A DNA stretch of 64,000 bases from Escherichia coli (GTDB lineage Bacteria; Pseudomonadota; Gammaproteobacteria; Enterobacterales; Enterobacteriaceae), in NCBI RefSeq assembly GCF_030013205.1, contig NZ_CP122648.1; one strand, written 5' to 3'. The position numbers and the translations under genes were made by a program. The notes under the pieces are model-generated. The model was given only the letters and a program-made list of their open reading frames with translations, was not told the DNA's origin and did not search any database. Below, one piece after another: positions 704-22,306 of this stretch (positions are counted from its first letter, which is position 1; the number at the start of each line of letters is the position of its first letter).

Positions 704-747
704 AGCGATACTCTCTCTTGTTTCCCGTGACAACCCTGGAAGCTGGC

Positions 748-2647: not shown

Positions 2648-2745
2648 TTTTGCCTCCTTTCGCGCCACAAGAAATTAACTGTAGCGGGAAAGGATAGGTT
2701 TGGCTATGTGGTCAGGTATGAAGCAAGGTCAACGGTCACAAAATT

Positions 2746-3531: not shown

Positions 3532-3564
3532 GAAAATTCCTCGAAAAACCATCACCCTGACATT

Positions 3565-4461: not shown

Positions 4462-4628
4462 GGTCATTCCTTAAGCATTTTGGGATGCGTTCATTTTAAT
4501 TTCACCAATTGTTTAAAAAGTGACGGCTGTCAATTTTTTGACGATAACTTACAAATACGATCAAAAACAGACAAGCAAAGCATGTCATAAATGACAAAAA
4601 GTGACATTACTGTATTCAGGAGAGGGTT

Positions 4629-5525: not shown

Positions 5526-5548
5526 CGACTGGATAAAGGAATAAATGA

Positions 5549-6427: not shown

Positions 6428-6442
6428 GATGGGGATACAAAA

Positions 6443-7684: not shown

Positions 7685-7742
7685 CTGAGCTGAAATAACG
7701 GCATATCAGGCTACATGCCGGGTATGTCGTTATTCAATAAAG

Positions 7743-8654: not shown

Positions 8655-8858
8655 CTTGTATTGATTAGCAGTCAAAATCATTGAAGAACATTTCACTCGC
8701 TAAAGGCAACGTTATGTATCATCAATTTATTAAGTTAAAAACAGCTCAGCTTCTTTAAAGTTTATATATATCAGTTTTATGAGAATCATTTTACATAAGC
8801 CTGTAATAACAATAACAGGAAGGAAACAACCTCGTTCTCAACTCTATGGAGATTATTT

Positions 8859-10895
8859 ATGGATACGCCACGCCCACAGTTATTAGATTTTCAATTTCAT
8901 CAGAATAACGACAGTCTTACCCTACGTTTTCAGGGCCGTCTTATTTTAACCCATAGTAAAGATAATCCTTGTTTATGGATTGGCTCAGGTATAGCGGATA
9001 TCGATATGTTCCGCGGTAATTTCAGCATTAAAGATAAATTGCAGGAGAAGATTGCGCTCACCGACGCTACCGTCAGCCAGTCACCGGATGGCTGGTTAAT
9101 CCATTTCAGCCGTGGTTCTGACATTAGCGCCACGCTGCGTATCTCTGCCGACGAACAGGGCCGTTTATTGCTGGAACTACAAAACGACAACCTTAACCAC
9201 AACCGTATCTGGCTGCGCCTTGCCGCTCAACCAGAGGACCATATCTACGGCTGCGGTGAACAATTCTCCTACTTTGATCTGCGCGGCAAACCGTTCCCGC
9301 TATGGACCAGTGAACAAGGCGTTGGTCGCAACAAGCAAACCTATGTCACCTGGCAGGCCGACTGCAAAGAGAACGCGGGCGGCGACTATTACTGGACTTT
9401 CTTCCCACAGCCTACGTTTGTCAGCACGCAGAAGTATTACTGCCATGTTGATAACAGTTGCTACATGAACTTCGACTTTAGCGCCCCGGAATACCATGAA
9501 CTGGCGCTGTGGGAAGACAAAGCAACGCTGCGTTTTGAATGTGCTGATACATACATCTCCCTGCTGGAAAAATTAACTGCCCTGCTGGGACGCCAGCCAG
9601 AACTGCCCGACTGGATTTATGACGGGGTAACGCTCGGCATTCAGGGCGGGACGGAAGTGTGTCAGAAGAAACTGGACACCATGCGTAACGCGGGTGTGAA
9701 GGTTAACGGCATCTGGGCGCAGGACTGGTCCGGGATCCGTATGACCTCTTTTGGCAAACGCGTAATGTGGAACTGGAAGTGGAACAGCGAAAACTATCCG
9801 CAACTGGACTCACGTATTAAGCAGTGGAACAAAGAGGGCGTGCAGTTCCTGGCCTATATCAACCCGTATGTAGCCAGCGATAAAGATCTCTGCGAAGAGG
9901 CGGCAAAGCGCGGTTATCTGGCAAAAGATGCCTCTGGCGGCGACTATCTGGTGGAGTTTGGCGAGTTCTATGGCGGCGTTGTCGATCTCACCAATCCAGA
10001 AGCCTACGCCTGGTTCAAGGAAGTGATCAAAAAGAACATGATTGAACTTGGCTGCGGCGGCTGGATGGCTGACTTCGGCGAGTATCTGCCCACCGACACG
10101 TACCTGCATAACGGCGTCAGCGCGGAAATTATGCATAACGCCTGGCCCGCGCTGTGGGCGAAATGTAACTACGAAGCCCTTGAAGAAACGGGCAAGCTCG
10201 GCGAGATCCTCTTCTTTATGCGCGCCGGTTCTACCGGTAGCCAGAAATACTCCACCATGATGTGGGCGGGCGACCAGAACGTCGACTGGAGTCTCGACGA
10301 TGGCCTGGCGTCGGTTGTCCCGGCGGCGCTGTCGCTGGCAATGACCGGACATGGCCTGCATCACAGCGACATTGGCGGTTACACCACCCTGTTTGAGATG
10401 AAGCGCAGCAAAGAGCTGCTGCTGCGCTGGTGCGATTTCAGCGCCTTCACGCCGATGATGCGCACCCACGAAGGTAACCGTCCTGGCGACAACTGGCAGT
10501 TTGACGGCGACGCGGAAACCATCGCCCATTTCGCCCGTATGACCACCGTCTTCACCACCCTGAAACCTTATCTGAAAGAGGCCGTCGCGCTGAATGCGAA
10601 GTCCGGTCTGCCGGTCATGCGCCCGCTGTTCCTGCATTACGAAGACGATGCGCACACTTACACCCTGAAATATCAGTACCTGTTAGGTCGCGACATTCTG
10701 GTCGCTCCGGTGCATGAAGAAGGCCGTAGCGACTGGACGCTCTATCTGCCGGAGGATAACTGGGTTCACGTCTGGACGGGTGAAGCGTTCCGGGGCGGGG
10801 AAGTTACCGTTAATGCGCCCATCGGCAAGCCGCCGGTCTTTTATCGCGCCGATAGCGAATGGGCGGCACTGTTCGCGTCGTTAAAAAGCATCTAA
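8859..10895 (+). CDS. yihQ: Sulfoquinovosidase (glycoside hydrolase family 31)
   Basis: 678-aa ORF; GH31-like; preceded by a 204-bp AT-rich intergenic region. Confidence 0.9.
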   Translation: MDTPRPQLLDFQFHQNNDSLTLRFQGRLILTHSKDNPCLWIGSGIADIDMFRGNFSIKDKLQEKIALTDATVSQSPDGWLIHFSRGSDISATLRISADEQGRLLLELQNDNLNHNRIWLRLAAQPEDHIYGCGEQFSYFDLRGKPFPLWTSEQGVGRNKQTYVTWQADCKENAGGDYYWTFFPQPTFVSTQKYYCHVDNSCYMNFDFSAPEYHELALWEDKATLRFECADTYISLLEKLTALLGRQPELPDWIYDGVTLGIQGGTEVCQKKLDTMRNAGVKVNGIWAQDWSGIRMTSFGKRVMWNWKWNSENYPQLDSRIKQWNKEGVQFLAYINPYVASDKDLCEEAAKRGYLAKDASGGDYLVEFGEFYGGVVDLTNPEAYAWFKEVIKKNMIELGCGGWMADFGEYLPTDTYLHNGVSAEIMHNAWPALWAKCNYEALEETGKLGEILFFMRAGSTGSQKYSTMMWAGDQNVDWSLDDGLASVVPAALSLAMTGHGLHHSDIGGYTTLFEMKRSKELLLRWCDFSAFTPMMRTHEGNRPGDNWQFDGDAETIAHFARMTTVFTTLKPYLKEAVALNAKSGLPVMRPLFLHYEDDAHTYTLKYQYLLGRDILVAPVHEEGRSDWTLYLPEDNWVHVWTGEAFRGGEVTVNAPIGKPPVFYRADSEWAALFASLKSI

Positions 10896-10940
10896 TCACA
10901 TCCGCCCGTGGGGAAACTCATGGGCAAAGGGAGAACATCG

Positions 10941-12326
10941 ATGAGTCACATCACAACGGAAGATCCAGCAACTTTACGCCTGCCCTTTAAAGAGAAACTC
11001 TCTTACGGTATCGGCGATCTGGCCTCTAACATCCTGCTGGATATTGGTACGCTTTATCTTTTGAAGTTTTATACCGACGTTCTGGGGCTACCTGGTACCT
11101 ATGGCGGCATTATCTTTTTGATCTCGAAATTCTTTACCGCCTTTACCGATATGGGAACCGGCATCATGTTGGATTCCCGACGCAAGATCGGTCCAAAAGG
11201 TAAGTTCCGTCCTTTTATTCTGTATGCGTCATTCCCGGTCACCTTACTGGCGATCGCCAACTTTGTCGGCACACCGTTTGATGTCACCGGTAAAACGGTG
11301 ATGGCCACTATTCTGTTTATGCTTTACGGACTGTTTTTCAGCATGATGAACTGCTCCTACGGCGCAATGGTCCCCGCTATCACCAAAAACCCCAACGAAC
11401 GCGCCTCACTGGCGGCATGGCGTCAGGGCGGCGCTACGCTGGGCCTGCTGCTGTGCACGGTGGGATTCGTGCCGGTTATGAATCTTATCGAGGGGAATCA
11501 GCAACTTGGCTATATCTTCGCCGCCACGCTGTTTTCACTGTTCGGCCTGCTGTTTATGTGGATCTGCTACTCGGGCGTGAAAGAGCGTTATGTCGAAACC
11601 CAACCTGCTAATCCGGCGCAAAAGCCTGGCCTGTTGCAATCTTTCCGCGCAATTGCCGGTAACCGCCCGCTGTTCATTCTGTGTATTGCTAACCTCTGCA
11701 CCTTAGGGGCGTTTAACGTCAAGCTCGCCATTCAGGTTTATTACACCCAGTACGTGCTTAACGATCCCATCCTGTTGTCATATATGGGATTTTTCAGCAT
11801 GGGCTGTATTTTCATCGGCGTGTTCCTGATGCCTGGCGCAGTCAGACGTTTTGGTAAGAAGAAGGTCTATATCGGCGGCCTGCTGATTTGGGTGCTTGGC
11901 GATCTGCTCAACTATTTCTTTGGCGGCGGTTCGGTCAGCTTCGTGACGTTCTCCTGCCTGGCATTCTTCGGCTCAGCGTTTGTTAACAGCCTGAACTGGG
12001 CGCTGGTTTCCGACACCGTGGAATATGGCGAATGGCGCACCGGCGTGCGTTCGGAAGGGACGGTCTACACCGGTTTCACCTTCTTTCGCAAAGTTTCTCA
12101 GGCGCTGGCTGGTTTCTTCCCCGGCTGGATGCTGACGCAAATCGGCTATGTGCCGAACGTCGCACAGGCTGACCACACCATTGAAGGGTTGCGCCAGCTG
12201 ATCTTCATCTACCCAAGCGCACTGGCAGTAGTCACCATTGTGGCGATGGGTTGCTTCTACAGTCTGAACGAGAAGATGTACGTCCGCATTGTTGAAGAGA
12301 TAGAAGCCCGTAAACGCACGGCGTAA
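10941..12326 (+). CDS. yihP: GPH-family sugar:cation symporter-like transporter (sulfoglycolysis-associated)
   Basis: ORF 10908..12326 trimmed to MSHITTEDPATLRL (RBS agggag 8 nt upstream); 461 aa; paralogous to yihO. Confidence 0.9.
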   Translation: MSHITTEDPATLRLPFKEKLSYGIGDLASNILLDIGTLYLLKFYTDVLGLPGTYGGIIFLISKFFTAFTDMGTGIMLDSRRKIGPKGKFRPFILYASFPVTLLAIANFVGTPFDVTGKTVMATILFMLYGLFFSMMNCSYGAMVPAITKNPNERASLAAWRQGGATLGLLLCTVGFVPVMNLIEGNQQLGYIFAATLFSLFGLLFMWICYSGVKERYVETQPANPAQKPGLLQSFRAIAGNRPLFILCIANLCTLGAFNVKLAIQVYYTQYVLNDPILLSYMGFFSMGCIFIGVFLMPGAVRRFGKKKVYIGGLLIWVLGDLLNYFFGGGSVSFVTFSCLAFFGSAFVNSLNWALVSDTVEYGEWRTGVRSEGTVYTGFTFFRKVSQALAGFFPGWMLTQIGYVPNVAQADHTIEGLRQLIFIYPSALAVVTIVAMGCFYSLNEKMYVRIVEEIEARKRTA

Positions 12327-12368
12327 TTATAATAAACAACGCCCTGCGGGGCGTTATAAGGAGTGATT

Positions 12369-13772
12369 ATGTCTGACCATAATCCACTGACATTAAGACT
12401 GAATCTGCGGGAAAAAATCACCTATGGTATGGGCGACGTCGGTTCGAATTTAATGCTCTGCATCGGTACTCTGTATCTCCTCAAATTTTATACCGATGAA
12501 TTAGGGATGCCTGCTTACTATGGCGGGATTATCTTTCTGGTGGCGAAGTTTTTTACCGCGTTTACCGATATGCTCACCGGATTTTTACTCGACTCGCGGA
12601 AAAATATTGGGCCTAAAGGCAAATTTCGTCCCTTTATTTTATATGCAGCGGTTCCGGCGGCGTTAATTGCAACGCTCCAGTTTATCGCCACCACCTTTAG
12701 TTTGCCGGTTAAAACGACGATTGCCACCGCACTGTTTATGATGTTTGGACTTTCATACAGTCTGATGAACTGCTCGTATGGTGCGATGATCCCGGCAATT
12801 ACCAAAAACCCGAATGAGCGCGCGCAGCTCGCGGCTTACCGCCAGGGTGGTGCAACCATAGGGCTATTGATTTGTACCGTGGCGTTTATTCCGTTGCAGT
12901 CGCTTTTTTCTGACTCCACCGTCGGTTATGCCTGCGCGGCACTGATGTTCTCCATTGGTGGCTTTATTTTTATGATGCTGTGCTACAGAGGCGTCAAAGA
13001 GCATTATGTGGACACGACGCCAACCGGACATAAAGCCAGTATTCTCAAATCTTTTTGCGCGATATTTCGTAATCCGCCATTGCTGGTTTTGTGCATTGCT
13101 AACCTGTGTACCCTGGCGGCATTTAATATCAAACTGGCGATTCAGGTCTATTACACCCAGTATGTGCTGAATGATATTAATTTATTGTCGTGGATGGGAT
13201 TTTTCAGTATGGGATGTATCCTCGTCGGCGTATTACTGGTGCCATTAACTGTAAAATGTTTTGGTAAAAAACAGGTTTATTTAGCTGGCATGGTGCTATG
13301 GGCGGTTGGTGATATCCTGAATTATTTCTGGGGAAGTAACTCTTTCACTTTCGTCATGTTCTCTTGTGTCGCCTTTTTTGGCACGGCCTTTGTAAACAGC
13401 CTGAACTGGGCACTGGTGCCAGATACCGTAGATTACGGTGAATGGAAAACCGGTATTCGTGCCGAAGGTTCTGTTTATACCGGTTATACCTTCTTTCGTA
13501 AAATTTCTGCCGCACTTGCTGGCTTCTTGCCAGGCATTATGCTGACGCAAATCGGTTATGTTCCCAACATCGCGCAAAGTGATGCGACATTACAGGGTTT
13601 GCGTCAGCTCATTTTTATCTGGCCTTGTGCACTGGCAATTATTGCTGCATTGACGATGGGATTCTTTTACACACTCAATGAAAAACGGTTTGCATTGATT
13701 ATTGAGGAAATCAACCAACGCAAAAATAAAGAGATGGCGACAGAAGAAAAAACGGCTTCCGTAACGTTATAA
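12369..13772 (+). CDS. yihO: GPH-family transporter (sulfoquinovose importer)
   Basis: ORF 12363..13772 trimmed to MSDHNPLTLRL (RBS aaggag upstream); 467 aa. Confidence 0.9.
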   Translation: MSDHNPLTLRLNLREKITYGMGDVGSNLMLCIGTLYLLKFYTDELGMPAYYGGIIFLVAKFFTAFTDMLTGFLLDSRKNIGPKGKFRPFILYAAVPAALIATLQFIATTFSLPVKTTIATALFMMFGLSYSLMNCSYGAMIPAITKNPNERAQLAAYRQGGATIGLLICTVAFIPLQSLFSDSTVGYACAALMFSIGGFIFMMLCYRGVKEHYVDTTPTGHKASILKSFCAIFRNPPLLVLCIANLCTLAAFNIKLAIQVYYTQYVLNDINLLSWMGFFSMGCILVGVLLVPLTVKCFGKKQVYLAGMVLWAVGDILNYFWGSNSFTFVMFSCVAFFGTAFVNSLNWALVPDTVDYGEWKTGIRAEGSVYTGYTFFRKISAALAGFLPGIMLTQIGYVPNIAQSDATLQGLRQLIFIWPCALAIIAALTMGFFYTLNEKRFALIIEEINQRKNKEMATEEKTASVTL

Positions 13773-13839
13773 ATGTCAATAGCCGCTATTTCCATCCTGG
13801 TGGGTGGCGGCCTCCCTACGTTTAAAAAATGGACTTATT

Positions 13840-14532
13840 ATGAAAAAGATTCATGCAATAATTTTATTATCTTCTCTGACCTCTGCCTCGGTATTTGCTG
13901 GCGCATACGTCGAAAACAGGGAGGCATATAATCTCGCCTCCGATCAGGGCGAGGTTATGCTACGTGTGGGTTATAACTTCGATATGGGCGCGGGTATTAT
14001 GTTAACCAATACCTATAACTATCAGCGAGAAGATGAACTAAAACATGGATATAACGAAATCGAAGGTTGGTATCCTTTATTTAAACCAACCGATAAATTA
14101 ACCATCCAGCCCGGTGGCTTAATTAATGATAAGAGTATCGGTTCGGGTGGTGCTGTTTATCTGGATGTTAACTACAAATTTACTCCGTGGTTTAACCTGA
14201 CAGTGCGTAATCGCTATAACCATAATAATTACAGTTCTACAGATTTGAGCGGGGAACTGGATAATAATGACACCTATGAAGTTGGCACCTACTGGAATTT
14301 TAAAATCACCGAGAAATTCTCCTATACATTTGAACCACATTACTTCATGCGAGTAAATGACTTTAATAGCAGCAATGGAAAAGATCATCACTGGGAAATC
14401 ACTAACACCTTCCGTTATCGCATTAATGAACACTGGCTGCCTTATTTCGAATTACGCTGGTTAGATCGTAATGTCGAACCGTACCACCGCGAGCAAAACC
14501 AGATTCGTATCGGGACGAAGTATTTCTTCTGA
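13840..14532 (+). CDS. ompL: Outer membrane porin L
   Basis: ORF 13804..14532 trimmed to MKKIHAIILLSSLTSASVFA (signal peptide); 230 aa; aromatic C-terminus ...KYFF typical of beta-barrel OMPs. Confidence 0.9.
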   Translation: MKKIHAIILLSSLTSASVFAGAYVENREAYNLASDQGEVMLRVGYNFDMGAGIMLTNTYNYQREDELKHGYNEIEGWYPLFKPTDKLTIQPGGLINDKSIGSGGAVYLDVNYKFTPWFNLTVRNRYNHNNYSSTDLSGELDNNDTYEVGTYWNFKITEKFSYTFEPHYFMRVNDFNSSNGKDHHWEITNTFRYRINEHWLPYFELRWLDRNVEPYHREQNQIRIGTKYFF

Positions 14533-14540
14533 TGTGAAAC

Positions 14541-14620
<80 letters not shown>

Positions 14621-14624
14621 TAAT

Positions 14625-15305
14625 TGTGCACAGAAAACCCCCAGCTAGGCTGGGGGTTCCGGAAAGCTTTCAGCTTTGAGCCAGTTATTAAAACCCCTTT
14701 TGATTTGTTAAAACACCTTGCGGTCTGGCAACTGCAAGTGTCAAACAAGAAATCAAAAGGGGGTCCCAATGGGGAACGAAAAGAGCTTAGCGCACACCCG
14801 ATGGAACTGTAAATATCACATGGTTTTTGCGCCAAAATACCGAAGACAGGTGTTCTACAGAGAGAAGCGTAGAGCAATAGGCAGTATTTTGAGAAAGCTG
14901 TGTGAGTGGAAAAGCGTACGGATTCTGGAAGCTGAATGCTGTGCAGATCATATCCATATGCTTGTGGAGATCCCGCCTAAAATGAGCGTATCCGGGTTTA
15001 TGGGATATCTGAAAGGGAAAAGCAGTCTGATGCTTTACGAGCAGTTTGGTGATTTGAAATTCAAATACAGGAACAGGGAGTTCTGGTGCAGAGGGTACTA
15101 CGTCGATACAGTGGGTAAGAACACGGCGAAGATACAGGATTACATAAAGCACCAGCTTGAAGAGGATAAAATGGGAGAGCAGTTATCGATTCCCTATCCG
15201 GGCAGCCCGTTTACGGGCCGTAAGTAACGAAGTTGGATGCAAATGTCAGATCGTGTGCGCCTGTTAGGGCGCGGCTGGTAAGAGAGCCTTATAGGCGCAT
15301 TTGAA
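14625..15305 (+). mobile_element. IS200-family (IS200/IS605) insertion element; ends approximate
   Basis: Contains a 152-aa tnpA ORF nearly identical to Salmonella IS200 TnpA as remembered; perfect hairpin cccccag-ctagg-ctggggg at about 14640-14658 upstream of tnpA; K-12 has no such element between ompL and yihN. Exact left and right ends not determinable without an empty-site comparison. Confidence 0.7.
14769..15227 (+). CDS. tnpA: IS200 transposase TnpA (HUH Y1 transposase)
   Basis: MGNEKSLAHTRWNCKYHMVFAPKYRRQVFY...HIHMLVEIPPK...; HUH motif (HIH) and the catalytic-Tyr region recognised; RBS aaagggg upstream. Confidence 0.9.
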   Translation: MGNEKSLAHTRWNCKYHMVFAPKYRRQVFYREKRRAIGSILRKLCEWKSVRILEAECCADHIHMLVEIPPKMSVSGFMGYLKGKSSLMLYEQFGDLKFKYRNREFWCRGYYVDTVGKNTAKIQDYIKHQLEEDKMGEQLSIPYPGSPFTGRK

Positions 15306-15307
15306 AA

Positions 15308-15334
15308 ACCTCCGGCTATGCCGGAGGATATTTA
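15308..15334 (-). terminator. Putative intrinsic terminator of yihN (could alternatively be the IS200 right-end hairpin)
   Basis: Minus-strand hairpin cctccggcatagccggagg followed by ttttt, directly 3' of the yihN stop. Confidence 0.45.
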
Positions 15335-16600
15335 TTAAGCTTCAGCCGCCAGCATCTCTTTCTTACGTTGGCTAATACGCTTAACCAGCATTACGGAAAC
15401 CACCGCACCACAGAATGCGAAGCAGGCCATAATGCCAAACACGATTTTGTAGCCAATAATCCCCGGATTTAAATCCAGAATGTAGCCATACAGACTGAAG
15501 CAGAACATCGCCGGGGCGTAACCAATAAAGCTACCCAACGCCATCGCCGCGCCTGTTTTATTTTCAGCAATTTTTGCTTCGCCGATAGGTGCAAAAAATA
15601 CGGCTCGCTGTGTAAAGACTATCGCGCCAAAGCCCAGCGTACATGCCATCCCTAAATATACCGGCATACTTTCGTGCGGCAGCATAATCAACAGTACGAG
15701 CGCAGCGGTACTGATGATAAAGGTGTAGCATAGATATTTACTCGGCGATTTCAGGATCTTATCTGAAATCATGCCACCAATCGGTCCACCAATCATTTTC
15801 AGACAGTATTGGTTAATGATGCCGTAAGCCCCCACCAGCGCAACGGGCAATAGATAGATGTTTTTCAGGAATGGAATGAAGAATGTCAGGCCACAGTAAA
15901 CCGCGTAAACGAAGAAGACGTTGAAAGCGATAAGCCAGATAGTTTTGTCTTTCAGCACCGAGGTCATACTGGTGTTTTTCGATGCTCCGTCTTCTTTTTT
16001 CACCTCAACGGACGGTGCCTCTTCTTTGTCATTCAGAACAAAGAAAATGATAATGCCTACGGCAATCACAATAAGGGAATAGAACCAGATGCCTGCTTTA
16101 AAACCCAATAAGCCACTGCCAAACCAGGTAAATACTGCCAACGCAGAAAATGCCACCACGGTATCGACAATGCCACGCCCTGTTTCGAAGAAGCCAAACA
16201 ACCGACCTTGTTGTTCGCTATTGCCCAATCGACTTACCGACTTGAGCAAGACCGGCCAGTTCATCATGTCGCAAGTAACGCCAAATAGCGCCCAGACAAA
16301 GAGGATGCCCCAATACCCCGGCATTGTCGTCAAATAAACACCCAGTAATCCTGTCGCAATGAGTGAGAATGACATGGTGTATCTGCGCGGTAGTTTATCG
16401 GCAAAATAAATAGACAGAAAAAAGCCCACTGTCGTGACAAATGAGTTTACCGACATAGCATTACCAATTTGACCATTGGTCAAATGGAAATATTCCTGCA
16501 TCGGGATATAAAACGCATCTTTCAGCGACGGTAATTTATAAATTGTACCGCCACACAATGTTAATAGACTAAATAACGCCCATTTCTTTTTCGTGAGCAT
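15335..16600 (-). CDS. yihN: MFS transporter
   Basis: 421-aa ORF, polytopic hydrophobic; synteny with yihM/yihL. Confidence 0.9.
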   Translation of the reverse strand: MLTKKKWALFSLLTLCGGTIYKLPSLKDAFYIPMQEYFHLTNGQIGNAMSVNSFVTTVGFFLSIYFADKLPRRYTMSFSLIATGLLGVYLTTMPGYWGILFVWALFGVTCDMMNWPVLLKSVSRLGNSEQQGRLFGFFETGRGIVDTVVAFSALAVFTWFGSGLLGFKAGIWFYSLIVIAVGIIIFFVLNDKEEAPSVEVKKEDGASKNTSMTSVLKDKTIWLIAFNVFFVYAVYCGLTFFIPFLKNIYLLPVALVGAYGIINQYCLKMIGGPIGGMISDKILKSPSKYLCYTFIISTAALVLLIMLPHESMPVYLGMACTLGFGAIVFTQRAVFFAPIGEAKIAENKTGAAMALGSFIGYAPAMFCFSLYGYILDLNPGIIGYKIVFGIMACFAFCGAVVSVMLVKRISQRKKEMLAAEA

Positions 16601-16701
16601 AACATCCCCTAAGCGATTTTTAAAATCACTGTTTTAAAGGCAATAAGATACCGACCATTCATATCGAATGGTTTTATTAACTGCGTATGAGTTAAAACTT
16701 A

Positions 16702-17682
16702 TTAGTGGTTCAGAAGATGGTTTGCCTCTTGTTTGATTTGTTGTAGTACGTTACGCACATGATTTATCTGATTAATTGCATCTTCTTTTTCTTTACGTAA
16801 CCGCGCATCCAGTAAATGATTTTCTGGCAATGGTGTTTCACTCATCTGGCGATAAGGGATCCACGGATTATCATCTTCGTCTTCAAAGCGGAACGCCGGC
16901 GCATAGTAATCAACCTCTTCTTCCAGGCCATATGCCGTCACCTGCGGCTCATCATCACCCAGGCATATAAGGTGCGTTAATAACGCTTTGAACGGCATAT
17001 CACCCTGACCTGAAATACAGGCTTTATGACCCAGGCCACCCTCTTCTTTAACGATCAAGGCATCTTTGATATGGACCTGGGTAATATGCGGTGCCATCGT
17101 TTTTAAAGCGTCGATGGGATGCTCATTTGCATTGATCATGTTCGCAAAATCAAACAGTAAGGAAAGAGATTCCATCTCACTTTCTTTGACCAGCGACACC
17201 AGCTCATGGCTTTTTAAATCTTCATGCTGTTCGATCGTAAAAGTCAGGCCGCTGTCCTGATACGTTTCCCGTACATAGGCAATGTCGTTAGCGATGATCG
17301 ATAATACGTCGCGCAAATTACCTTCATAACGTGGATAAAAACGTACGGACGATGCCCCAGTTTTCAACGCAATGGCGACGGCTTCGTCAATAGATGCCTT
17401 ATCTGAAGCGCTGGTTTCAATATGAATATCAAGGTTCAGACGGCGGGCTTTATCCCCAAAGGCAGAGAGTTCTTTATCGTCCATATTACCAAGAGAAAAA
17501 CGCTCGCCATCCAGAACATGGATTTTGACGCCACGTAGATTATTTTCACTTGCGATATCAAGTAAATCAGCAGGCAACACTCTTTCCAGCCGCATATTTA
17601 AATGAAAGGCATAAGCATGTAAATAAAGAGGAAGAGTGTCGACACGTTGTAGAATCTTTCTTGCGTTATTTATTGTCACCAT
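16702..17682 (-). CDS. yihM: Sugar phosphate isomerase/epimerase (xylose-isomerase-like TIM barrel)
   Basis: 326-aa ORF; recognised as YihM. Confidence 0.88.
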   Translation of the reverse strand: MVTINNARKILQRVDTLPLYLHAYAFHLNMRLERVLPADLLDIASENNLRGVKIHVLDGERFSLGNMDDKELSAFGDKARRLNLDIHIETSASDKASIDEAVAIALKTGASSVRFYPRYEGNLRDVLSIIANDIAYVRETYQDSGLTFTIEQHEDLKSHELVSLVKESEMESLSLLFDFANMINANEHPIDALKTMAPHITQVHIKDALIVKEEGGLGHKACISGQGDMPFKALLTHLICLGDDEPQVTAYGLEEEVDYYAPAFRFEDEDDNPWIPYRQMSETPLPENHLLDARLRKEKEDAINQINHVRNVLQQIKQEANHLLNH

Positions 17683-17689
17683 AAAACAC

Positions 17690-18400
17690 CTACAGATTAA
17701 TGATGAGGTCTACGGCCTCAAATCGCCAATATTCAATATCTATCTGGACAATATTGCCTTGCTGGTCGGCGCGATGCTTTTCAATTAAGATCGCTGGCAT
17801 ACCCACAGAACCGCCAAGATACTTGCTGATATCGCCCGGCATTCTGACGGGTTTGAAAATCAATTTTTTTACTACCGTCTCTTTTTGGTAGCACTTTTCC
17901 CAGACTGCAGAAAATGAGTGGTTTTCAAGTTGTTCAATAAAACCCGGAGCAACTTCAGGATTAATATATGTTTCGTGATAGAAAACTTTATGTCCTTCCA
18001 GCGCCCCCCAGCCGGTGATGCGATAGAGTTCAGTTGATGGTGTCACTGCAATCAGTGGCGCGAGCGTCTCGGGAATATCGCTGGTACGGTTTTTCTCGGT
18101 AAACCCCCAGGAAGGCTCTCGTCCTTGCTCAATTGCGGCCCGCTGAAAGCTCGCTGACAGCTCCGGACTGTAATTAAATCGCGGCTGGGTCACGAACCAC
18201 CCCTTACGATCCTTACGGAAGATTTTGGATTCTGCCTCGAGGTTCAACAACGCCTGGCGCAGCGTCATACGTTTAATGCCCAGCAGTTCTCCCAGCTCTC
18301 TTTCTGAAGGGAGTTTTCCACCCGGCGTGGTGATGCCATCTTTCAACCACCGATCCAGTTTCTCTTTTGCATTTTCTACGGTGGATTGATTCTCCGCCAT
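17690..18400 (-). CDS. yihL: GntR-family transcriptional regulator
   Basis: 236-aa ORF; N-terminal GntR wHTH (ERELGELLGIKRMTLRQAL), UTRA-like C-terminus. Confidence 0.9.
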   Translation of the reverse strand: MAENQSTVENAKEKLDRWLKDGITTPGGKLPSERELGELLGIKRMTLRQALLNLEAESKIFRKDRKGWFVTQPRFNYSPELSASFQRAAIEQGREPSWGFTEKNRTSDIPETLAPLIAVTPSTELYRITGWGALEGHKVFYHETYINPEVAPGFIEQLENHSFSAVWEKCYQKETVVKKLIFKPVRMPGDISKYLGGSVGMPAILIEKHRADQQGNIVQIDIEYWRFEAVDLIINL

Positions 18401-18565
18401 TGTTTAATCCTTTTGGTTTAAACCAGACGAAGCATCTTACGCTTACGCCAAAAAAGAAAGCAATTAACGGTGTATGACTTTGCAGATAATTGTGACAAAG
18501 CTCTCTATTGACGTAATCACAGACTTATAAGGGAGATACTCGCATTGGTGTGCGCTCACGACAGG

Positions 18566-18600
18566 TAAAAAAAACCTGCCAGCAATGGCAGGTTTTTTAT
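18566..18600 (-). terminator. Intrinsic terminator downstream of typA
   Basis: Hairpin cctgccagcaatggcagg flanked by an A-run and a T-run (can act on either strand). Confidence 0.6.
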
Positions 18601-18615
18601 GACTGAAAAACGAAA

Positions 18616-20439
18616 TTAATCGTCTTTCGGTGCGCGGTTGGCGCGGCGACGATCGTTTTCCGTCAGGTGACGTTTACGAATACGGATAGAGGTTGGAGTC
18701 ACTTCTACCAGTTCGTCATCATCGATGAACTCCAGAGCTTGTTCCAGAGTCATGCGGATAGGCGGAACCAGAACAACGGCTTCGTCAGTACCGGAAGCAC
18801 GCATGTTGGTCAGTTTCTTACCGGTCAGGCAGTTTACAGTCAGGTCGTTAGAGCGGCTGTGAATACCGATAATCTGACCTTCGTAAACTTCTGCACCGTG
18901 ACCGAGGAACAGCTTACCGCGATCCTGCAGACCGAACAGCGCGAACGCTACCGCTTTACCCTGACCGTTAGAGATCAGTACGCCGTTCTGACGCTGACCC
19001 ACTTCACCCGGACGTACGTCGTCGTAGTGGCTGAAGGTGGAGTACAGCAGACCAGTACCGGAAGTCATGGTCATGAACTCAGAACGGAAGCCAATCAGAC
19101 CACGGCTTGGGATCACGTAGTCGAGACGTACGCGGCCTTTACCGTCTGGATTCATGTTTTTCAGGTCGCCTTTACGTTCGCCCAGCGCCTGCATCACAGA
19201 ACCCTGATGCTGTTCTTCAACGTCCAGCGTCACGTTTTCATACGGCTCTTGTTTACGACCGTCGATTTCACGGAAGATTACTTTCGGACGGGATACCGCC
19301 AGTTCGAAACCTTCACGACGCATGTTTTCGATCAGAACAGACAGGTGCAGTTCGCCACGACCAGAAACGCGGAACGCATCGGCGTCTTCGGTTTCTTCTA
19401 CGCGCAGCGCAACGTTGTGTACCAGTTCTTTGTTCAGACGATCCAGGATCTGACGAGACGTTACGAACTTACCTTCTTTACCGCAGAACGGCGAGGTGTT
19501 AACGCAGAAGAACATAGAAACGGTCGGCTCATCAACGGAGAGTGCCGGCAGCGCTTCAACGTTTTGCGTGTCGCAAACGGTGTCAGAAATGTTCAGTTCG
19601 CCCAGGCCCGTGATCGCCACGATATCGCCAGCTTCCGCCAGATCGGTTTCGATACGTTCCAGACCGAGGTGGCCCAGCACTTTACCGACTTTCGCGTTGC
19701 GGGTTTTGCCTTCGCTATCGATGATAGTAACCTGCTGGTTCGGCTTCACTTTACCGCGCTTGATGCGGCCAATGCCGATAACGCCAACATAGCTGTTGTA
19801 ATCGAGCTGAGAAATCTGCATCTGGAACGGACCGTCAAGGTCAACGTCCGGCGCAGGAACGTGGTCAACAATCGCCTGATACAGCGGGGTCATGTCTTCC
19901 GCCATATCTTCGTGGTCCAGACCCGCGATACCGTTCAGCGCAGAAGCGTAAACGATCGGGAAGTCCAGCTGCTCGTCGGTCGCGTCGAGGTTAACGAACA
20001 GATCGAATACCTGATCCACAACCCAATCAGGACGCGCGCCAGGGCGGTCAACTTTGTTGATAACAACAATCGGCTTCAGGCCGTAAGCAAACGCTTTTTT
20101 GGTTACGAAGCGCGTTTGCGGCATCGGGCCGTCAAATGCGTCAACCACCAGCAGCACTGAGTCTACCATGGACATTACACGTTCAACTTCACCACCGAAG
20201 TCGGCGTGCCCCGGGGTATCAACGATGTTGATACGGTAATCATTCCATTTGATAGCGGTGTTTTTCGCGAGGATGGTAATCCCACGCTCTTTCTCCAAAT
20301 CGTTGGAGTCCATCACGCGCTCTTGGGTTTCGGCACGAGAGTCGAACGTACCGGATTGTTGGAGCAGCTTGTCTACCAGGGTGGTTTTACCATGGTCTAC
20401 GTGCGCGATGATGGCGATATTACGCAATTTTTCGATCAC
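18616..20439 (-). CDS. typA: Ribosome-associated translational GTPase BipA/TypA
   Basis: 607-aa [26 protein letters not shown]...; G1 AHVDHGKTT and G3 DTPGH motifs. Confidence 0.95.
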
Positions 20440-20728: not shown

Positions 20729-20811
20729 TTATCTTTTTTACGGCGACACGGCCAAAATAATTGCAGATTTCGTTACCACGACGACCATGACCAATCCAGG
20801 AGAGTTAAAGT

Positions 20812-22221
20812 ATGTCCGCTGAACACGTACTGACGATGCTGAACGAGCACGAAGTGAAGTTTGTTGATTTGCGCTTCACCGATACCAAAGGTAAAGAACA
20901 GCACGTCACTATCCCTGCTCATCAGGTGAATGCTGAATTCTTCGAAGAAGGCAAAATGTTTGACGGCTCCTCGATTGGCGGCTGGAAAGGCATTAACGAA
21001 TCCGACATGGTGCTGATGCCAGACGCATCCACCGCAGTGATTGATCCGTTCTTCGCCGATTCTACCCTGATTATCCGTTGCGACATCCTTGAACCTGGTA
21101 CCCTGCAAGGCTATGACCGTGACCCGCGCTCCATCGCGAAGCGCGCTGAAGATTACCTGCGTTCCACTGGCATTGCCGACACCGTACTGTTCGGGCCAGA
21201 ACCTGAATTCTTCCTGTTCGATGACATCCGTTTCGGATCTTCTATCTCCGGTTCCCACGTTGCTATCGACGATATCGAAGGCGCATGGAACTCCTCCACC
21301 CAATATGAAGGTGGTAACAAAGGTCACCGTCCGGCAGTGAAAGGCGGTTACTTCCCGGTTCCGCCGGTAGACTCTGCTCAGGATATTCGTTCTGAAATGT
21401 GTCTGGTGATGGAACAGATGGGTCTGGTGGTTGAAGCCCATCACCACGAAGTAGCGACTGCTGGTCAGAACGAAGTGGCTACCCGCTTCAATACCATGAC
21501 CAAAAAAGCTGACGAAATTCAGATCTACAAATATGTTGTGCACAACGTAGCGCACCGCTTCGGTAAAACCGCGACCTTTATGCCAAAACCGATGTTCGGT
21601 GATAACGGCTCCGGTATGCACTGCCACATGTCGCTGTCTAAAAACGGCGTCAACCTGTTCGCAGGCGACAAATACGCAGGTCTGTCTGAGCAGGCGCTGT
21701 ACTATATTGGCGGCGTAATCAAACACGCGAAAGCGATTAATGCCCTGGCAAACCCGACCACCAACTCTTACAAGCGTCTGGTCCCGGGCTACGAAGCACC
21801 GGTAATGCTGGCTTACTCTGCACGCAACCGTTCTGCGTCTATCCGTATTCCGGTGGTTTCTTCTCCGAAAGCACGTCGTATCGAAGTACGTTTCCCGGAT
21901 CCGGCGGCTAACCCGTACCTGTGCTTTGCTGCCCTGCTGATGGCCGGTCTTGATGGTATCAAGAACAAGATCCATCCGGGCGAAGCCATGGACAAAAACC
22001 TGTATGACCTGCCGCCGGAAGAAGCGAAAGAGATCCCACAGGTTGCTGGTTCTCTGGAAGAAGCACTGAACGAACTGGATCTGGACCGCGAGTTCCTGAA
22101 AGCCGGTGGCGTGTTCACTGATGAAGCGATCGATGCGTACATCGCTCTGCGTCGCGAAGAAGATGACCGCGTGCGTATGACTCCGCATCCGGTAGAGTTT
22201 GAGCTGTACTACAGCGTCTAA
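20812..22221 (+). CDS. glnA: Glutamine synthetase
   Basis: 469-aa [34 protein letters not shown]...; adenylylation site region NLYDLP present. Confidence 0.97.
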
Positions 22222-22306
22222 TAGTTGAAGTTGTACTACCCGGCGCAACAACGCCGGGATTTAGTTGCCGTGGAAACTTTCAGCCCATCTCTGCATGGGC
22301 TTTTTT
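22222..22306 (+). ncRNA. glnZ: glnA 3'UTR, likely source of the 3'UTR-derived sRNA GlnZ
   Basis: About 85 nt between the glnA stop and an intrinsic terminator (agcccat-ctctgc-atgggct + tttttt, 22282-22306); a GlnZ sRNA processed from the glnA 3'UTR is established in enterics. Exact 5' end not determinable from sequence. Confidence 0.4.

What the first reader, a model, noticed from the sequence alone, without database searches (positions are those of the whole stretch)
15335..18400. yihL-yihM-yihN cassette of unknown substrate next to the SQ cluster
A GntR-family regulator, a xylose-isomerase-like TIM-barrel enzyme and an MFS transporter, transcribed together on the minus strand, form a compact regulator-enzyme-transporter unit whose substrate is, to my knowledge, still unassigned in E. 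coli. Here it is separated from ompL and the SQ genes by the IS200 insertion.
Basis: inference. Interest (0 to 1): 0.3.

Follow-up and report, generated by a model that had tools for sequence, protein, structure and literature searches.

The report
Orphan yihLMN regulator-enzyme-transporter operon
This is the real, intact E. coli yihL-yihM-yihN operon (repressor, TIM-barrel enzyme, membrane importer), whose substrate is still unknown; it is not part of the neighbouring sulfoquinovose pathway and probably handles a small amine-bearing, sugar-like compound.

Summary
Window 15335-18400 (minus strand) holds yihN (MFS, 421 aa), yihM (xylose-isomerase-fold TIM barrel, 326 aa) and yihL (GntR/UTRA, 236 aa). 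A 709-bp IS200C (14626-15334) abuts the yihN stop codon. I found no substrate assignment in the searchable literature or in the RefSeq names.

New here:
- YihL's strongest published ChIP-exo site maps onto a perfect palindrome, TGGTTTAAACCA (18414-18425), 13 nt upstream of yihL. The palindrome holds this position in 47 loci (one-base variants in 7 more), and recurs in 4 with a YihL-like regulator (41-44% identical). The operon is therefore autoregulated.
- The cassette is independent of the SQ genes. It travels alone in Aeromonas, Morganella, Serratia and Photobacterium. About 19% of complete E. coli genomes lack yihM; one lacks the cassette yet keeps the SQ genes.
- All three genes are under strong purifying selection (dN/dS 0.02-0.09).
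- Relatives of YihM (44-63% identical) sit beside MocR-type regulators, RidA, agmatinase-like genes and histidinol-phosphatase-like phosphatases of two unrelated folds.

My inference is that the substrate is an amine-bearing, sugar-like compound that YihM converts in one metal-dependent step. This is an ordinary kind of system and a known orphan. Interest is modest.

The parts
17690..18400 (-). yihL: HutC-subfamily GntR repressor (wHTH plus UTRA effector domain), 236 aa. First gene of the operon.
   Evidence: ORF. Pfam GntR and UTRA. Nearest curated family is PhnR at 181.6 bits, below its cut-off of 296.75. It is 34% identical to Salmonella/Klebsiella PhnR. ChIP-exo shows it binds its own upstream region.
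16702..17682 (-). yihM: xylose-isomerase-fold (beta/alpha)8 barrel enzyme, 326 aa, with a C-terminal extension (about residues 255-326) that ends in a long helix.
15335..16600 (-). yihN: major-facilitator transporter, 421 aa, presumed importer.
   Evidence: Pfam MFS_1, 95 bits. Weak best match to the OPA/PgtP family (72 bits against a cut-off of 408). The GlpT Arg45/Arg269 equivalents are absent. A yihN knockout accumulates less of many dyes (PMC8131027).
18414..18425 (.). YihL operator: the perfect 12-bp palindrome TGGTTTAAACCA, 13 nt upstream of the yihL ATG.
   Evidence: It is the only match in the 64-kb window with up to one mismatch. In K-12 it lies inside the strongest YihL ChIP-exo footprint (S/N 60.46). 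The exact 12-mer lies 19-30 nt (73 nt in Acinetobacter) upstream of the yihL orthologue in 47 loci, with one-base variants in 7 more. It occurs in 2-4 copies in the Marinobacterium, Oceanospirillaceae and Rhodobacterales loci.
18426..18463 (-). Probable yihL promoter (inferred): TTGCTT (18463-18458), 18-nt spacer, TAAGAT (18439-18434). This would place the operator at about +2 of the transcript.
   Evidence: Read directly from the sequence. It falls below the threshold of the consensus scan, so it is an inference only.
18566..18598 (-). Intrinsic terminator of typA, which separates yihLMN from the upstream gene.
   Evidence: A 13-bp stem followed by a U-run, -17.7 kcal/mol, z = -4.43. Sequence.
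14626..15334 (+). IS200C insertion (tnpA at 14769-15227). It marks the downstream boundary of the cassette in this strain and is not part of the cassette. Its terminal hairpin (15309-15327) now lies directly after the yihN stop codon.
   Evidence: Alignment with K-12, annotation and hairpin. The junction occurs in 17 of 5426 genomes.

Best explanation
yihLMN is a self-contained, substrate-inducible uptake-and-conversion operon.

Shown or strongly supported:
- YihL, a HutC-type GntR repressor, binds the palindrome TGGTTTAAACCA just upstream of its own start codon, so it controls the single yihL-yihM-yihN transcription unit.
- The unit is conserved, mobile as a block, under purifying selection, and independent of the sulfoquinovose genes next to it.

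Inferred:
- An effector, either the imported compound or its product, releases YihL from the operator.
- YihN imports the compound.
- YihM uses the canonical single-metal site of the xylose-isomerase fold (E151, D178, H204, E252) plus family-specific H153, E154, K206, R114, R265 and R278. It converts the compound in one step into something housekeeping pathways can use.
- The compound is most likely a small, amine-bearing, sugar-like carbonyl compound, such as an amino sugar or a vicinal amino-alcohol/amino-ketone derivative, possibly with an anionic group.
- The step is most likely an aldose-ketose-type isomerisation or a beta-elimination that passes through an enamine/imine and releases ammonia. 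A plain epimerisation is the fallback.
- In other phyla the same enzyme is also fed by ABC importers coupled to histidinol-phosphatase-like phosphatases. This suggests the phosphate ester of the same compound is a second source, dephosphorylated before YihM acts.
For: Regulation:
- The ChIP-exo table for YihL gives three sites. The dominant one has S/N 60.46 and its nearest gene is yihL.
- After the 1977-bp shift between K-12 genome versions, that site covers the palindrome found at K-12 positions 4060422-4060433.
- The exact 12-mer holds the same position in 47 loci (one-base variants in 7 more) across Enterobacterales, Aeromonas, Photobacterium, Neisseriaceae and Acinetobacter. It is multiplied in the Marinobacterium, Oceanospirillaceae and Rhodobacterales loci.

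Unit character:
- 54 of 80 genome loci keep the regulator-barrel-MFS order.
- The neighbourhoods in Aeromonas and Morganella are unrelated to each other and to E. coli.
- dN/dS is 0.02-0.09.

Enzyme:
- The invariant residues are listed.

Amine clue:
- MocR-type (PLP/aminotransferase-domain) regulators replace YihL next to YihM plus YihN-like pairs in Pseudomonas, two Actinomycetota, Paracoccus and Rhizobiales.
- A RidA (enamine/imine deaminase family) gene sits between the yihM and yihN homologues in three Photobacterium species.
- Agmatinase-like genes directly follow YihM-like genes in three loci from Rhodobacterales and Granulosicoccus.
- YihL's nearest solved relatives are the amino-sugar repressors NagR and DasR, and its nearest curated family is the 2-aminoethylphosphonate sensor PhnR.

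Phosphate-ester side route:
- IMPase-fold HisN-like phosphatases (254 bits, cut-off 275) occur in four lineages.
- An unrelated HAD-IB histidinol-phosphatase-like enzyme plus a Na/Pi-PhoU transporter sit in the Pseudogulbenkiania operon, whose YihM is 63% identical to E. coli's.
- In every case the phosphatase comes with an ABC importer. The secondary carriers (YihN-type MFS or NCS1) pair with YihM itself.

One enzyme only: the triplet cassettes carry no further recurrent gene, so the product must feed existing pathways.
Against: - No substrate, effector or activity has been measured. The amine inference rests on neighbours of homologues only 44-63% identical, or on one lineage in the case of RidA.
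- More distant relatives (29-40% identical) sit in clearly different contexts: an ery-like kinase/dehydrogenase/aldolase cluster, glycoside hydrolase clusters and an amino-acid ABC system. The family is therefore not isofunctional, and transferring function to E. coli is risky.
- YihL lacks the Arg-x-Arg pair that binds phosphate in NagR and is retained in PhnR; YihL has Gly-Trp-Gly there. YihN lacks the OPA arginines. Nothing in the E. coli cassette itself points to phosphate.
- The conserved arginines of YihM would fit a plain sugar acid equally well.
- Mapping the ChIP-exo site onto the operator assumes the published coordinates are in the older genome version. This is inferred from the gene assignment and the 1977-bp difference in genome length.
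Confidence: 0.45

Rival explanations
1. A nitrogen-free sugar or sugar-acid 'adapter' cassette. YihN imports a rare keto-sugar or keto-acid. YihM epimerises, isomerises or dehydrates it into an intermediate of the hexuronate, aldonate or ketose pathways, as FrlC, UlaE, OtnI and UxuA do in their own systems.
For: - The fold and its nearest structures are sugar isomerases, epimerases and dehydratases.
- NCBIfam gives faint matches to IolE and to L-ribulose-5-P 3-epimerase.
- YihN has a weak match to the D-galactonate transporter family.
- The conserved Arg114, Arg265 and Arg278 fit a carboxylate.
- One 45%-identical homologue lies between a TAXI-TRAP binding protein and a shikimate-dehydrogenase-like gene.
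- HutC-type regulators commonly control sugar operons.
Against: It does not explain the repeated replacement of YihL by MocR regulators, the RidA insertion, the agmatinase-like neighbours, or the histidinol-phosphatase-like genes of two different folds.
Confidence: 0.25
2. An organophosphate or phosphonate catabolic module. The imported compound is itself a phosph(on)ate, either 2-aminoethylphosphonate-like or an amino-alcohol phosphate mono- or diester. YihM acts directly on it, for example by beta-eliminating phosphate or cleaving a phosphodiester, and releases the group that the phosphatases then hydrolyse.
For: - PhnR is YihL's nearest curated family.
- PhnS/PhnT2-like ABC systems flank YihM homologues (PhnT2 scores 435 bits against a cut-off of 458).
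- Phosphatases of two folds and a Na/Pi-PhoU transporter lie in the same operons.
- YihN's best family match is the OPA family.
- Endonuclease IV and beta-eliminases belong to the same fold superfamily.
Against: - YihL has lost the Arg-x-Arg phosph(on)ate site that NagR uses and PhnR keeps.
- YihN lacks GlpT Arg45 and Arg269 and is only 18-23% identical to GlpT and UhpT.
- YihM lacks the extra His ligands of the trinuclear endonuclease IV site; only the E-D-H-E tetrad is conserved.
- None of the 54 triplet cassettes carries a phosphatase.
- No phnW/X/A/Z-type C-P enzyme was seen next to any homologue.
Confidence: 0.12
3. An accessory module of the sulfoquinovose (sulfo-EMP) pathway next door, for example uptake or conversion of an SQ-related sugar.
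For: Physical adjacency to ompL and yihO-yihW in Escherichia and in some Citrobacter. The shared 'yih' names only reflect map position.
Against: - No SQ gene lies within 8 kb in more than 45 loci outside Enterobacteriaceae.
- Pseudocitrobacter, Enterobacter sp. JUb54, Raoultella and Citrobacter sp. NCU1 have typA-yihLMN-yihX with no SQ genes.
- About 19% of complete E. coli genomes lack yihM; in the one examined (WB61) the cassette is deleted and the adjacent SQ genes are intact.
- YihL's ChIP-exo sites include no SQ promoter.
Confidence: 0.03
4. A cryptic or decaying cassette with no specific substrate in E. coli. The dye-uptake phenotype of the yihN knockout would then reflect non-specific permeation.
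For: It is lost from about one fifth of E. coli genomes, and IS elements (IS30, IS1) disrupt it in a few strains. No phenotype is reported beyond reduced dye accumulation.
Against: - dN/dS is 0.02-0.09 for all three genes.
- The reading frames are intact in about 77% of genomes at 95-100% identity.
- The operator is perfectly conserved over large phylogenetic distances.
- YihL is expressed and DNA-bound in K-12.
Confidence: 0.05

Closest known systems
phnR-phnSTUV-phnWX, the 2-aminoethylphosphonate regulon of Salmonella and Klebsiella
   Same: - PhnR is the closest curated family to YihL (181.6 bits; 34% identity).
- Both are HutC-type repressors placed next to a transporter and catabolic genes.
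- The putative PhnR boxes I read on a Salmonella plasmid (TGGTCTATACCA and TGGTCTACACCA) share the TGGT-N4-ACCA frame with the YihL operator.
- PhnS/PhnT-like ABC systems flank YihM homologues in Rhizobiales and Pseudogulbenkiania.
   Different: - YihL scores below the PhnR cut-off and has Gly-Trp-Gly where PhnR keeps Arg-x-Arg.
- The centre of the operator differs (TTAA versus CTAT/CTAC).
- The enzyme is a TIM barrel, not a PhnW transaminase or PhnX phosphonatase.
- The E. coli transporter is an MFS, not an ABC system.
frlABCDR, the fructoselysine/psicoselysine operon of E. coli (from established knowledge; not analysed here)
   Same: A GntR/UTRA repressor (FrlR), a transporter and a xylose-isomerase-fold enzyme (FrlC, a 3-epimerase) together convert an amine-bearing sugar derivative into the substrate of an existing route. 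This is the 'adapter' logic I propose for YihM.
   Different: The frl operon also encodes a kinase and a deglycase, whereas yihLMN has one enzyme only. YihM shows no close sequence relation to any defined subfamily. The frl transporter belongs to a different family.
NagR (YvoA) and DasR, the amino-sugar repressors, and their dre operators
   Same: They are the nearest solved structures to YihL (E = 6.5e-13 and 2.4e-11). They have the same two-domain build. Their operator, TGGTCTAGACCA (from established knowledge), is a close variant of TGGTTTAAACCA.
   Different: NagR binds the phosphate of GlcN-6-P and GlcNAc-6-P with Arg133 and Arg135 (PMC4333415). YihL has Gly130 and Gly132 at those positions, so its effector is bound differently and need not be phosphorylated.
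Art22 isomerase (PDB 8z1i) and the unassigned Planctomyces barrels 4ovx and 3tva
Organophosphate:phosphate antiporters GlpT, UhpT, PgtP, and the 2AEP permease AepP
   Same: This is the best-scoring curated family for YihN (72 bits). AepP shows that a GlpT-like MFS can carry an aminophosphonate (PMC8316502).
   Different: YihN scores far below the family cut-off of 408. It is 18-23% identical to GlpT and UhpT, and has Pro24 and a Tyr (about residue 234) where GlpT has Arg45 and Arg269.
Brucella eryABCD, the erythritol operon (from established knowledge)
   Same: One distant YihM relative (37% identical) lies in a DeoR regulator / FGGY kinase / GlpD-like dehydrogenase / class II aldolase cluster with the same logic. 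There the barrel would isomerise a keto-polyol phosphate.
   Different: That context is absent from E. coli and from all homologues at 44% identity or above. It shows only that the wider family works on keto-sugar-like substrates.

Membership tests
GntR family, HutC (UTRA) subfamily repressors | N-terminal GntR winged helix-turn-helix plus C-terminal UTRA (chorismate-lyase-fold) effector domain | tested here: met
   Pfam GntR scores 70.2 bits and UTRA 77.3 bits, both above their cut-offs.
GntR family, HutC (UTRA) subfamily repressors | Binds a short palindromic operator (TGGT-N4-ACCA type) at the controlled promoter | tested here: met
   The published ChIP-exo peak (S/N 60.46) lies upstream of yihL and coincides with TGGTTTAAACCA. 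The exact site is conserved in 47 orthologous loci, with one-base variants in 7 more.
GntR family, HutC (UTRA) subfamily repressors | DNA binding is relieved by a small-molecule effector | not testable with these tools
   This needs EMSA or reporter assays with candidate ligands.
PhnR (2-aminoethylphosphonate regulator, TIGR03337 equivalog) | Score at or above the curated cut-off | tested here: not met
   181.6 bits against a cut-off of 296.75. Identity to annotated PhnR is 34%.
PhnR (2-aminoethylphosphonate regulator, TIGR03337 equivalog) | Arg-x-Arg pair on strand betaE2, which binds the phosph(on)ate group in NagR and is retained in PhnR | tested here: not met
   The YihL family has Gly-Trp-Gly, whereas PhnR has Arg-Leu-Arg. 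NagR Arg133 and Arg135 align to YihL Gly130 and Gly132.
PhnR (2-aminoethylphosphonate regulator, TIGR03337 equivalog) | Adjacent to phnSTUV and phnWX | tested here: not met
   The E. coli neighbours are yihM, yihN and typA. The Salmonella plasmid control shows the genuine arrangement.
Xylose isomerase-like TIM barrel (PF01261, AP_endonuc_2) | Profile match above the gathering score | tested here: met
   35.9 bits against 31.1, covering residues 44-238.
Xylose isomerase-like TIM barrel (PF01261, AP_endonuc_2) | (beta/alpha)8 fold superposable on solved members | tested here: met
Xylose isomerase-like TIM barrel (PF01261, AP_endonuc_2) | Glu-Asp-His-Glu metal tetrad at the C-terminal ends of strands 5-8 | tested here: met
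   E151, D178 and H204 are invariant. E252 is conserved except for Gln in 4 distant sequences. All four sit at the predicted strand ends. Metal binding itself was not measured.
Functionally defined subfamilies of that fold (IolE, UlaE/SgbU, D-tagatose 3-epimerase, AsbF) | Score at or above the equivalog cut-off, or clear sequence similarity | tested here: not met
   IolE scores 17.3 bits against 290, and L-ribulose-5-P 3-epimerase 16.7 against 200. PDB E-values are 0.11 for AsbF and 0.74 for DTE.
Major facilitator superfamily | MFS_1 profile across the 12-TM core | tested here: met
   95 bits, covering residues 33-364.
Organophosphate:Pi antiporter (OPA) family | Family score at or above the cut-off, and the two substrate-binding arginines (GlpT Arg45 and Arg269) | tested here: not met
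   72.4 bits against 407.75. Pro24 and a Tyr (about residue 234) occupy the two positions in the alignment with GlpT and UhpT.
Sulfoquinovose (sulfo-EMP) gene cluster yihO-yihW/ompL | Co-inheritance with the SQ genes across genomes | tested here: not met
   The cassette occurs without SQ genes in most loci, and in E. coli strain WB61 the SQ genes occur without it.
Sulfoquinovose (sulfo-EMP) gene cluster yihO-yihW/ompL | Common regulation | tested here: inconclusive
   YihL's three ChIP-exo sites (in glucose M9) include no SQ promoter. CsqR binding to yihL and SQ induction were not examined.

The most novel reading that the evidence does not exclude
YihM founds an undescribed enzyme activity: a PLP-independent, metal-dependent isomerase-deaminase or lyase of the xylose-isomerase fold. 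It would convert an amino-sugar-like or vicinal amino-alcohol/amino-ketone compound into a central metabolite plus ammonia. The phosphate ester of the same compound would be salvaged in other phyla by recruited paralogues of each lineage's own histidinol phosphatase. This would be a carbon/nitrogen salvage route present in about 80% of E. coli and widely across Proteobacteria and Actinomycetota.
Probability: 0.22. Interest if true: 0.6.

Novelty: new member of a known kind. Interest (0 to 1): 0.33.

Why it matters
yihLMN is one of the remaining fully orphan regulator-enzyme-transporter units of E. coli K-12. It is conserved from Aeromonas to Actinomycetota. Naming its substrate would remove three y-genes, define a new specificity (possibly a new reaction) in a large enzyme superfamily, and add a nutrient to the list that distinguishes gut Enterobacterales.

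This work does not solve that, but it makes the question directly testable:
- It supplies a defined operator and promoter for a reporter.
- It shows that the SQ pathway is a red herring.
- It narrows the candidates to amine-bearing, sugar-like compounds and their phosphate esters.
- It points to tractable binding proteins (SBP_bac_6, MocR, YihL-UTRA) for ligand screens.

Tried and rejected
- **Link to the SQ pathway.** Rejected on distribution.
- **YihN as a canonical organophosphate:Pi antiporter.** Rejected. The score is far below the cut-off and both signature arginines are missing. My earlier argument that Pi antiport would replace a Pi exporter therefore has no support in E. coli.
- **YihL as a phosph(on)ate sensor like PhnR or NagR.** Weakened. 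The Arg-x-Arg pair is replaced by Gly-Trp-Gly.
- **Choline or phosphocholine link through 'betA'.** In an annotated plasmid copy of the Rhizobiales-type cluster (L101) the GMC oxidoreductase follows an NCS1 permease rather than betB. A GMC oxidoreductase also occurs near the Marinobacterium and Rhodobacterales clusters, where an aldehyde dehydrogenase accompanies it. The link may be real, but it is absent from all triplet cassettes. Left open.
- **Quinate/shikimate or inositol link.** It rests on a single metagenomic locus (L007). Not pursued.
- **Histidine-pathway link.** HutF and HutG-like neighbours were seen in one or two loci only. Not pursued.
- **Distant homologues (29-40% identical).** Their contexts are heterogeneous, so I used them only to say the wider family handles keto-sugar-like substrates.
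- **Literature.** Searches for the gene names, the b-numbers, 'yihLMN', Art22 and a TIM-barrel/phosphonate combination gave no functional assignment.
- **Consensus promoter scan.** It found nothing convincing upstream of yihL, so the promoter I give is read by eye.
- **Specific candidates I considered but cannot support beyond chemical plausibility.** These are aminouronates, 2-amino-2-deoxy-aldonates, O-phosphoserine, serine-ethanolamine phosphodiester and lombricine, and 6-deoxy-amino sugars. I do not claim any of them.

Full report
**1. What is in the window**

The DNA is 100% identical to pig ETEC and O139:H1 chromosomes, where RefSeq calls the genes yihN (MFS transporter), yihM (sugar phosphate isomerase/epimerase family protein) and yihL (GntR family transcriptional regulator).

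Pfam agrees. It finds MFS_1 for YihN, AP_endonuc_2 (xylose-isomerase-like TIM barrel) for YihM, and GntR plus UTRA for YihL.

The flanks are as follows.
- Upstream lies typA (18616-20439, minus strand). It ends in a textbook terminator with a 13-bp stem, a U-run, -17.7 kcal/mol and z = -4.4.
- Downstream, alignment with K-12 shows a 709-bp IS200C at 14626-15334 inserted right at the yihN stop codon.
- The coding sequence is untouched. The terminal hairpin of the IS (15309-15327) now lies directly behind yihN.
- This junction exists in only 17 of 5426 complete E. coli genomes, and all eight listed come from pigs. It is a lineage marker with no bearing on function.

**2. The genes are functional and form one unit**

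dN/dS against orthologues in Pseudocitrobacter, Citrobacter, Raoultella and Morganella is 0.02-0.09 for all three genes. The yihL-yihM gap is 7 nt and the yihM-yihN gap is 101 nt.

In a scan of one genome per species, 54 of 80 loci that encode a YihM relative keep the order regulator-barrel-MFS. Two more loci are cut off at the regulator. These loci come from Enterobacterales, Aeromonas, Photobacterium, Neisseriaceae and Acinetobacter. In Aeromonas and Morganella the surrounding genes are unrelated to those in E. coli, so the triplet moves as a block.

**3. Regulation**

A published ChIP-exo study of uncharacterised E. coli transcription factors (PMC8464067) lists three YihL sites in its supplement. 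Two are weak (S/N about 5). The third has S/N 60.46 at 4058436-4058459, with yihL as the nearest gene.

In the current K-12 record yihL starts at 4060447. The two K-12 genome versions differ in length by 1977 bp; the current length comes and the older length from established knowledge. With that shift the footprint becomes 4060413-4060436. This covers the perfect palindrome TGGTTTAAACCA at 4060422-4060433.

In the window the palindrome is at 18414-18425, 13 nt upstream of the yihL ATG. It is the only match in 64 kb even with one mismatch allowed.

Its conservation across loci is as follows.
- The exact 12-mer lies 19-30 nt upstream of the yihL orthologue in 46 loci, and at -73 in Acinetobacter (47 in all).
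- Single-base variants occur in six loci of a paralogous cassette (TGGTTTATACCA) and in Budvicia (AGGTTTAAACCA).
- Three or four exact copies (plus one one-base variant in L068) lie in the divergent intergenic regions of the Marinobacterium and Oceanospirillaceae loci, and two in a Rhodobacterales locus.
- The regulators in those last lineages are only 41-44% identical to YihL.

The operator is therefore established by one experiment plus deep conservation, and the operon is autoregulated. A weak promoter can be read by eye: TTGCTT, 18 nt, TAAGAT (18463-18434). It would put the operator at about +2, which fits repression by occlusion. This is inference only, because the consensus scan did not report the promoter.

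**4. Relation to the sulfoquinovose cluster**

- SQ genes flank the cassette only in Escherichia and some Citrobacter.
- Pseudocitrobacter, Enterobacter sp. JUb54, Raoultella and Citrobacter sp. NCU1 have typA-yihLMN followed by yihX-yihY-dtd-fabY, with no SQ genes (in NCU1 about 1.8 kb lies between yihN and yihX).
- More than 45 loci outside the Enterobacteriaceae have no SQ gene within 8 kb.
- Within E. coli, the cassette is complete (at least 80% covered) in 4238 of 5426 genomes. yihM is detectable in 4386 genomes (81%), and there are no divergent copies.
- Strain WB61 shows a clean deletion. It leaves 66 nt of the yihN 3' end between ompL and typA, and the adjacent SQ genes yihR-yihO and ompL are intact.
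- The SQ cluster looks like an insertion between yihN and yihX.

**5. The three proteins**

*YihL.* Its closest curated family is PhnR, the 2-aminoethylphosphonate regulator, at 181.6 bits. That is well above every other family (52 bits or less) but below the PhnR cut-off of 296.75. Identity to annotated PhnR is 34%. Its closest solved relatives are the amino-sugar repressors NagR and DasR.

In NagR the effector's phosphate is held by Arg133 and Arg135 (PMC4333415). PhnR keeps Arg-x-Arg at that position, but all YihL orthologues have Gly-Trp-Gly. The YihL effector is therefore not bound in the NagR/PhnR phosphate mode.

*YihN.* Its best family match is the organophosphate:Pi antiporters, but at 72 bits against a cut-off of 408. 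It is 18-23% identical to GlpT and UhpT and lacks both signature arginines. It forms its own MFS family with conserved Lys22, Lys27, an Arg in the ETGRG motif, and an Arg near residue 340. A yihN knockout takes up less of many dyes (PMC8131027). That fits an importer but says nothing specific.

*YihM.*
- It has no close solved relative. The best sequence matches are E = 5e-6 to the unassigned barrel 3tva and 3e-5 to the isomerase Art22.
- The family is small, with 47 representatives at E below 1e-30 among 1.84 billion cluster representatives.
- An AlphaFold model built on 28 homologues is confident (pLDDT 95.8).
- Invariant residues are E151, D178 and H204, which with E252 form the canonical metal tetrad. 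The family-specific residues are H153, E154, E160, N181, R114, S91, R265, S281 and E298, with K206 and R278 nearly invariant. Several of these lie in a roughly 70-residue C-terminal extension.
- The trinuclear-zinc histidines of endonuclease IV are absent.

**6. Clues to the substrate from relatives**

Where the E. coli-type triplet is not kept, homologues 44-63% identical to YihM sit in a limited set of arrangements.

| Lineage | Arrangement |
|---|---|
| Pseudomonas sp., an Actinomycetota MAG, an Arthrobacter plasmid, a high-GC contig filed under Sporosarcina, Paracoccus | MocR-type regulator (GntR HTH fused to an aminotransferase-like domain), YihM, YihN-like MFS |
| Rhizobiales (13 genome loci plus plasmids) | NCS1 permease and GMC oxidoreductase; MocR; SBP_bac_6 ABC system resembling PhnS/PhnT2 (PhnT2 435 bits against cut-off 458); YihM; IMPase-fold phosphatase closest to histidinol-phosphatase HisN (254 bits against cut-off 275) |
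| Marinobacterium and Oceanospirillaceae | One operon with a Dpp-type ABC system and the HisN-like phosphatase. A divergent operon with the YihL-like regulator, YihM and an NCS1 permease. Three or four YihL boxes lie between them |
| Pseudogulbenkiania (YihM 63% identical to E. coli's) | HutC-type regulator; SBP_bac_6 ABC; HAD-IB phosphatase whose best matches are the Pseudomonas- and Neisseria-type histidinol phosphatases (196 and 190 bits); Na/Pi cotransporter with a PhoU domain; YihM |
| Two Rhodobacterales loci and a Granulosicoccus MAG | An agmatinase-like gene directly follows YihM |
| Three Photobacterium species | A RidA-family gene sits between the yihM and yihN homologues |

From this I infer three things.

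*An amine.* MocR effectors are amino compounds (established knowledge). RidA proteins hydrolyse enamines and imines. Ureohydrolases unmask amines. PhnR, NagR and DasR all sense amino compounds.

*A phosphate ester as a second source.* Two unrelated phosphatase folds have been recruited, and each is nearest to histidinol phosphatase, whose substrate is a 2-aminoalkyl phosphate. In every case the phosphatase comes with an ABC importer, and once with a likely Pi exporter. The secondary carriers (YihN or NCS1) pair with YihM itself. The simplest reading has two steps. ABC systems bring in the phosphate ester, which is dephosphorylated. The free compound, which YihN imports directly in E. coli, is what YihM acts on. 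This also fits the missing phosphate-binding residues in YihL and YihN.

*A single conversion step.* The triplet carries only one enzyme, so its product must be an ordinary metabolite. The fold works by metal-assisted deprotonation next to a carbonyl. An aldose-ketose-type isomerisation or a beta-elimination through an enamine/imine, with loss of ammonia, is therefore the best guess. That would also explain RidA.

**7. Limits**

Nothing here measures a substrate. RidA represents a single evolutionary event. The MocR and phosphatase contexts belong to proteins about 45% identical to YihM.

More distant relatives (29-40% identical) sit in quite different settings: an ery-like kinase/dehydrogenase/aldolase cluster, glycoside-hydrolase clusters, an amino-acid ABC system, and DAO/AlaDH neighbours. 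The wider family is therefore not isofunctional.

A nitrogen-free sugar-acid adapter remains a serious rival (0.25). Direct action on a phosph(on)ate is less likely (0.12). A role in SQ metabolism (0.03) and a decaying cassette (0.05) are both unlikely.

**8. Comparison with known systems, and novelty**

In architecture this is an ordinary substrate-inducible operon of the frl, nag or phn type. It meets the definitions of HutC-type repressor, PF01261 barrel and MFS. It fails the tests for PhnR, for the OPA family, for every functionally defined barrel subfamily, and for membership of the SQ cluster (see the table).

The genes are long-known orphans, and YihL's binding site was already in a public supplement. 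What this work adds is the following:
- identification of the operator, and its conservation;
- the independence from the SQ genes;
- the presence/absence pattern within E. coli;
- the comparative-genomic narrowing of the substrate class.

I rate it a new member of a known kind, of modest interest (0.33). There is about a 0.2 chance that YihM turns out to catalyse a reaction not yet described for this fold.

Noticed in passing
window 14626-15334: An IS200C copy is inserted exactly at the yihN stop codon. The junction occurs in only 17 of 5426 complete E. coli genomes, and all eight listed are pig isolates (ETEC, O139:H1). These genomes carry 19-33 matches to the probe, consistent with an IS200 expansion in this lineage.
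   Followed up: yes
L097 7001-7066 (E. coli WB61); window equivalent 15335-15400: About 19% of complete E. coli genomes lack yihM. In strain WB61 a clean deletion leaves a 66-nt remnant of the yihN 3' end between ompL and typA, with the adjacent SQ genes yihR-yihO and ompL intact. I did not determine which phylogroups carry the deletion.
   Followed up: partly
L043-L046, L050, L054-L056, L058-L060, L063, L066: A second, paralogous cassette exists in Citrobacter, Buttiauxella, Shimwellia, Silvania and Entomohabitans; the Photobacterium cassettes (L049, L051-L053) show similar divergence. YihM is about 60% identical, YihN about 52% and YihL about 46%. Some genomes carry both copies: Citrobacter sp. 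R56 (L013 and L050), sp. Awk 4 (L014 and L054), sp. NCU1 (L064 and L058), and a Buttiauxella agrestis assembly flagged UNVERIFIED_ORG (L034 and L055). Six of these loci use the operator variant TGGTTTATACCA. This suggests two related substrates.
   Followed up: partly
L012, L021, L061, L064, L074 versus window 1-14532: Where the SQ cluster is absent, yihN is followed by yihX-yihY-dtd-fabY in the same orientation (directly, or after about 1.8 kb in L064). The whole ompL/yihO-csqR block therefore looks like an insertion between yihN and yihX in Escherichia and some Citrobacter.
   Followed up: partly
window 18667-20160 (+) and 20773-22251 (-): Very long ORFs (497 aa and 492 aa) run antisense to typA and glnA. 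They are probably the frame artefacts often seen opposite highly expressed genes.
   Followed up: no
window 14536-14625: REP-type palindromic repeats (GCCGGATGCGGCGTAAACGCCTTATCCGGCCTAC and its partner) fill the ompL-yihN intergenic space. The IS200 is inserted just past them.
   Followed up: no
L102 5831-5842 and 6813-6824 (Salmonella plasmid pCFSAN076215): A complete phnR-phnSTUV / phnWX 2-aminoethylphosphonate regulon sits on a conjugative plasmid. Putative PhnR boxes TGGTCTATACCA (phnW-phnR spacer) and TGGTCTACACCA (upstream of phnS) are present, and a RidA-family gene lies at the edge of the locus.
   Followed up: partly
L079 (Sporosarcina beigongshangi scaffold18) and L101 (Roseateles sp. 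XES5 plasmid): The 'Sporosarcina' contig has 67% G+C, which is far from what I would expect for a Firmicute. The 'Roseateles' plasmid is flagged UNVERIFIED_ORG and its genes are 85-96% identical to Ensifer/Sinorhizobium ones. Both are probably misassigned or contaminant sequences.
   Followed up: no
L005/L006 8514-9986 (Morganella morganii): In Morganella the cassette lies divergently next to the end of the ethanolamine-utilisation (eut) microcompartment operon. This may be coincidence, or it may be a hint of an ethanolamine-type product.
   Followed up: no
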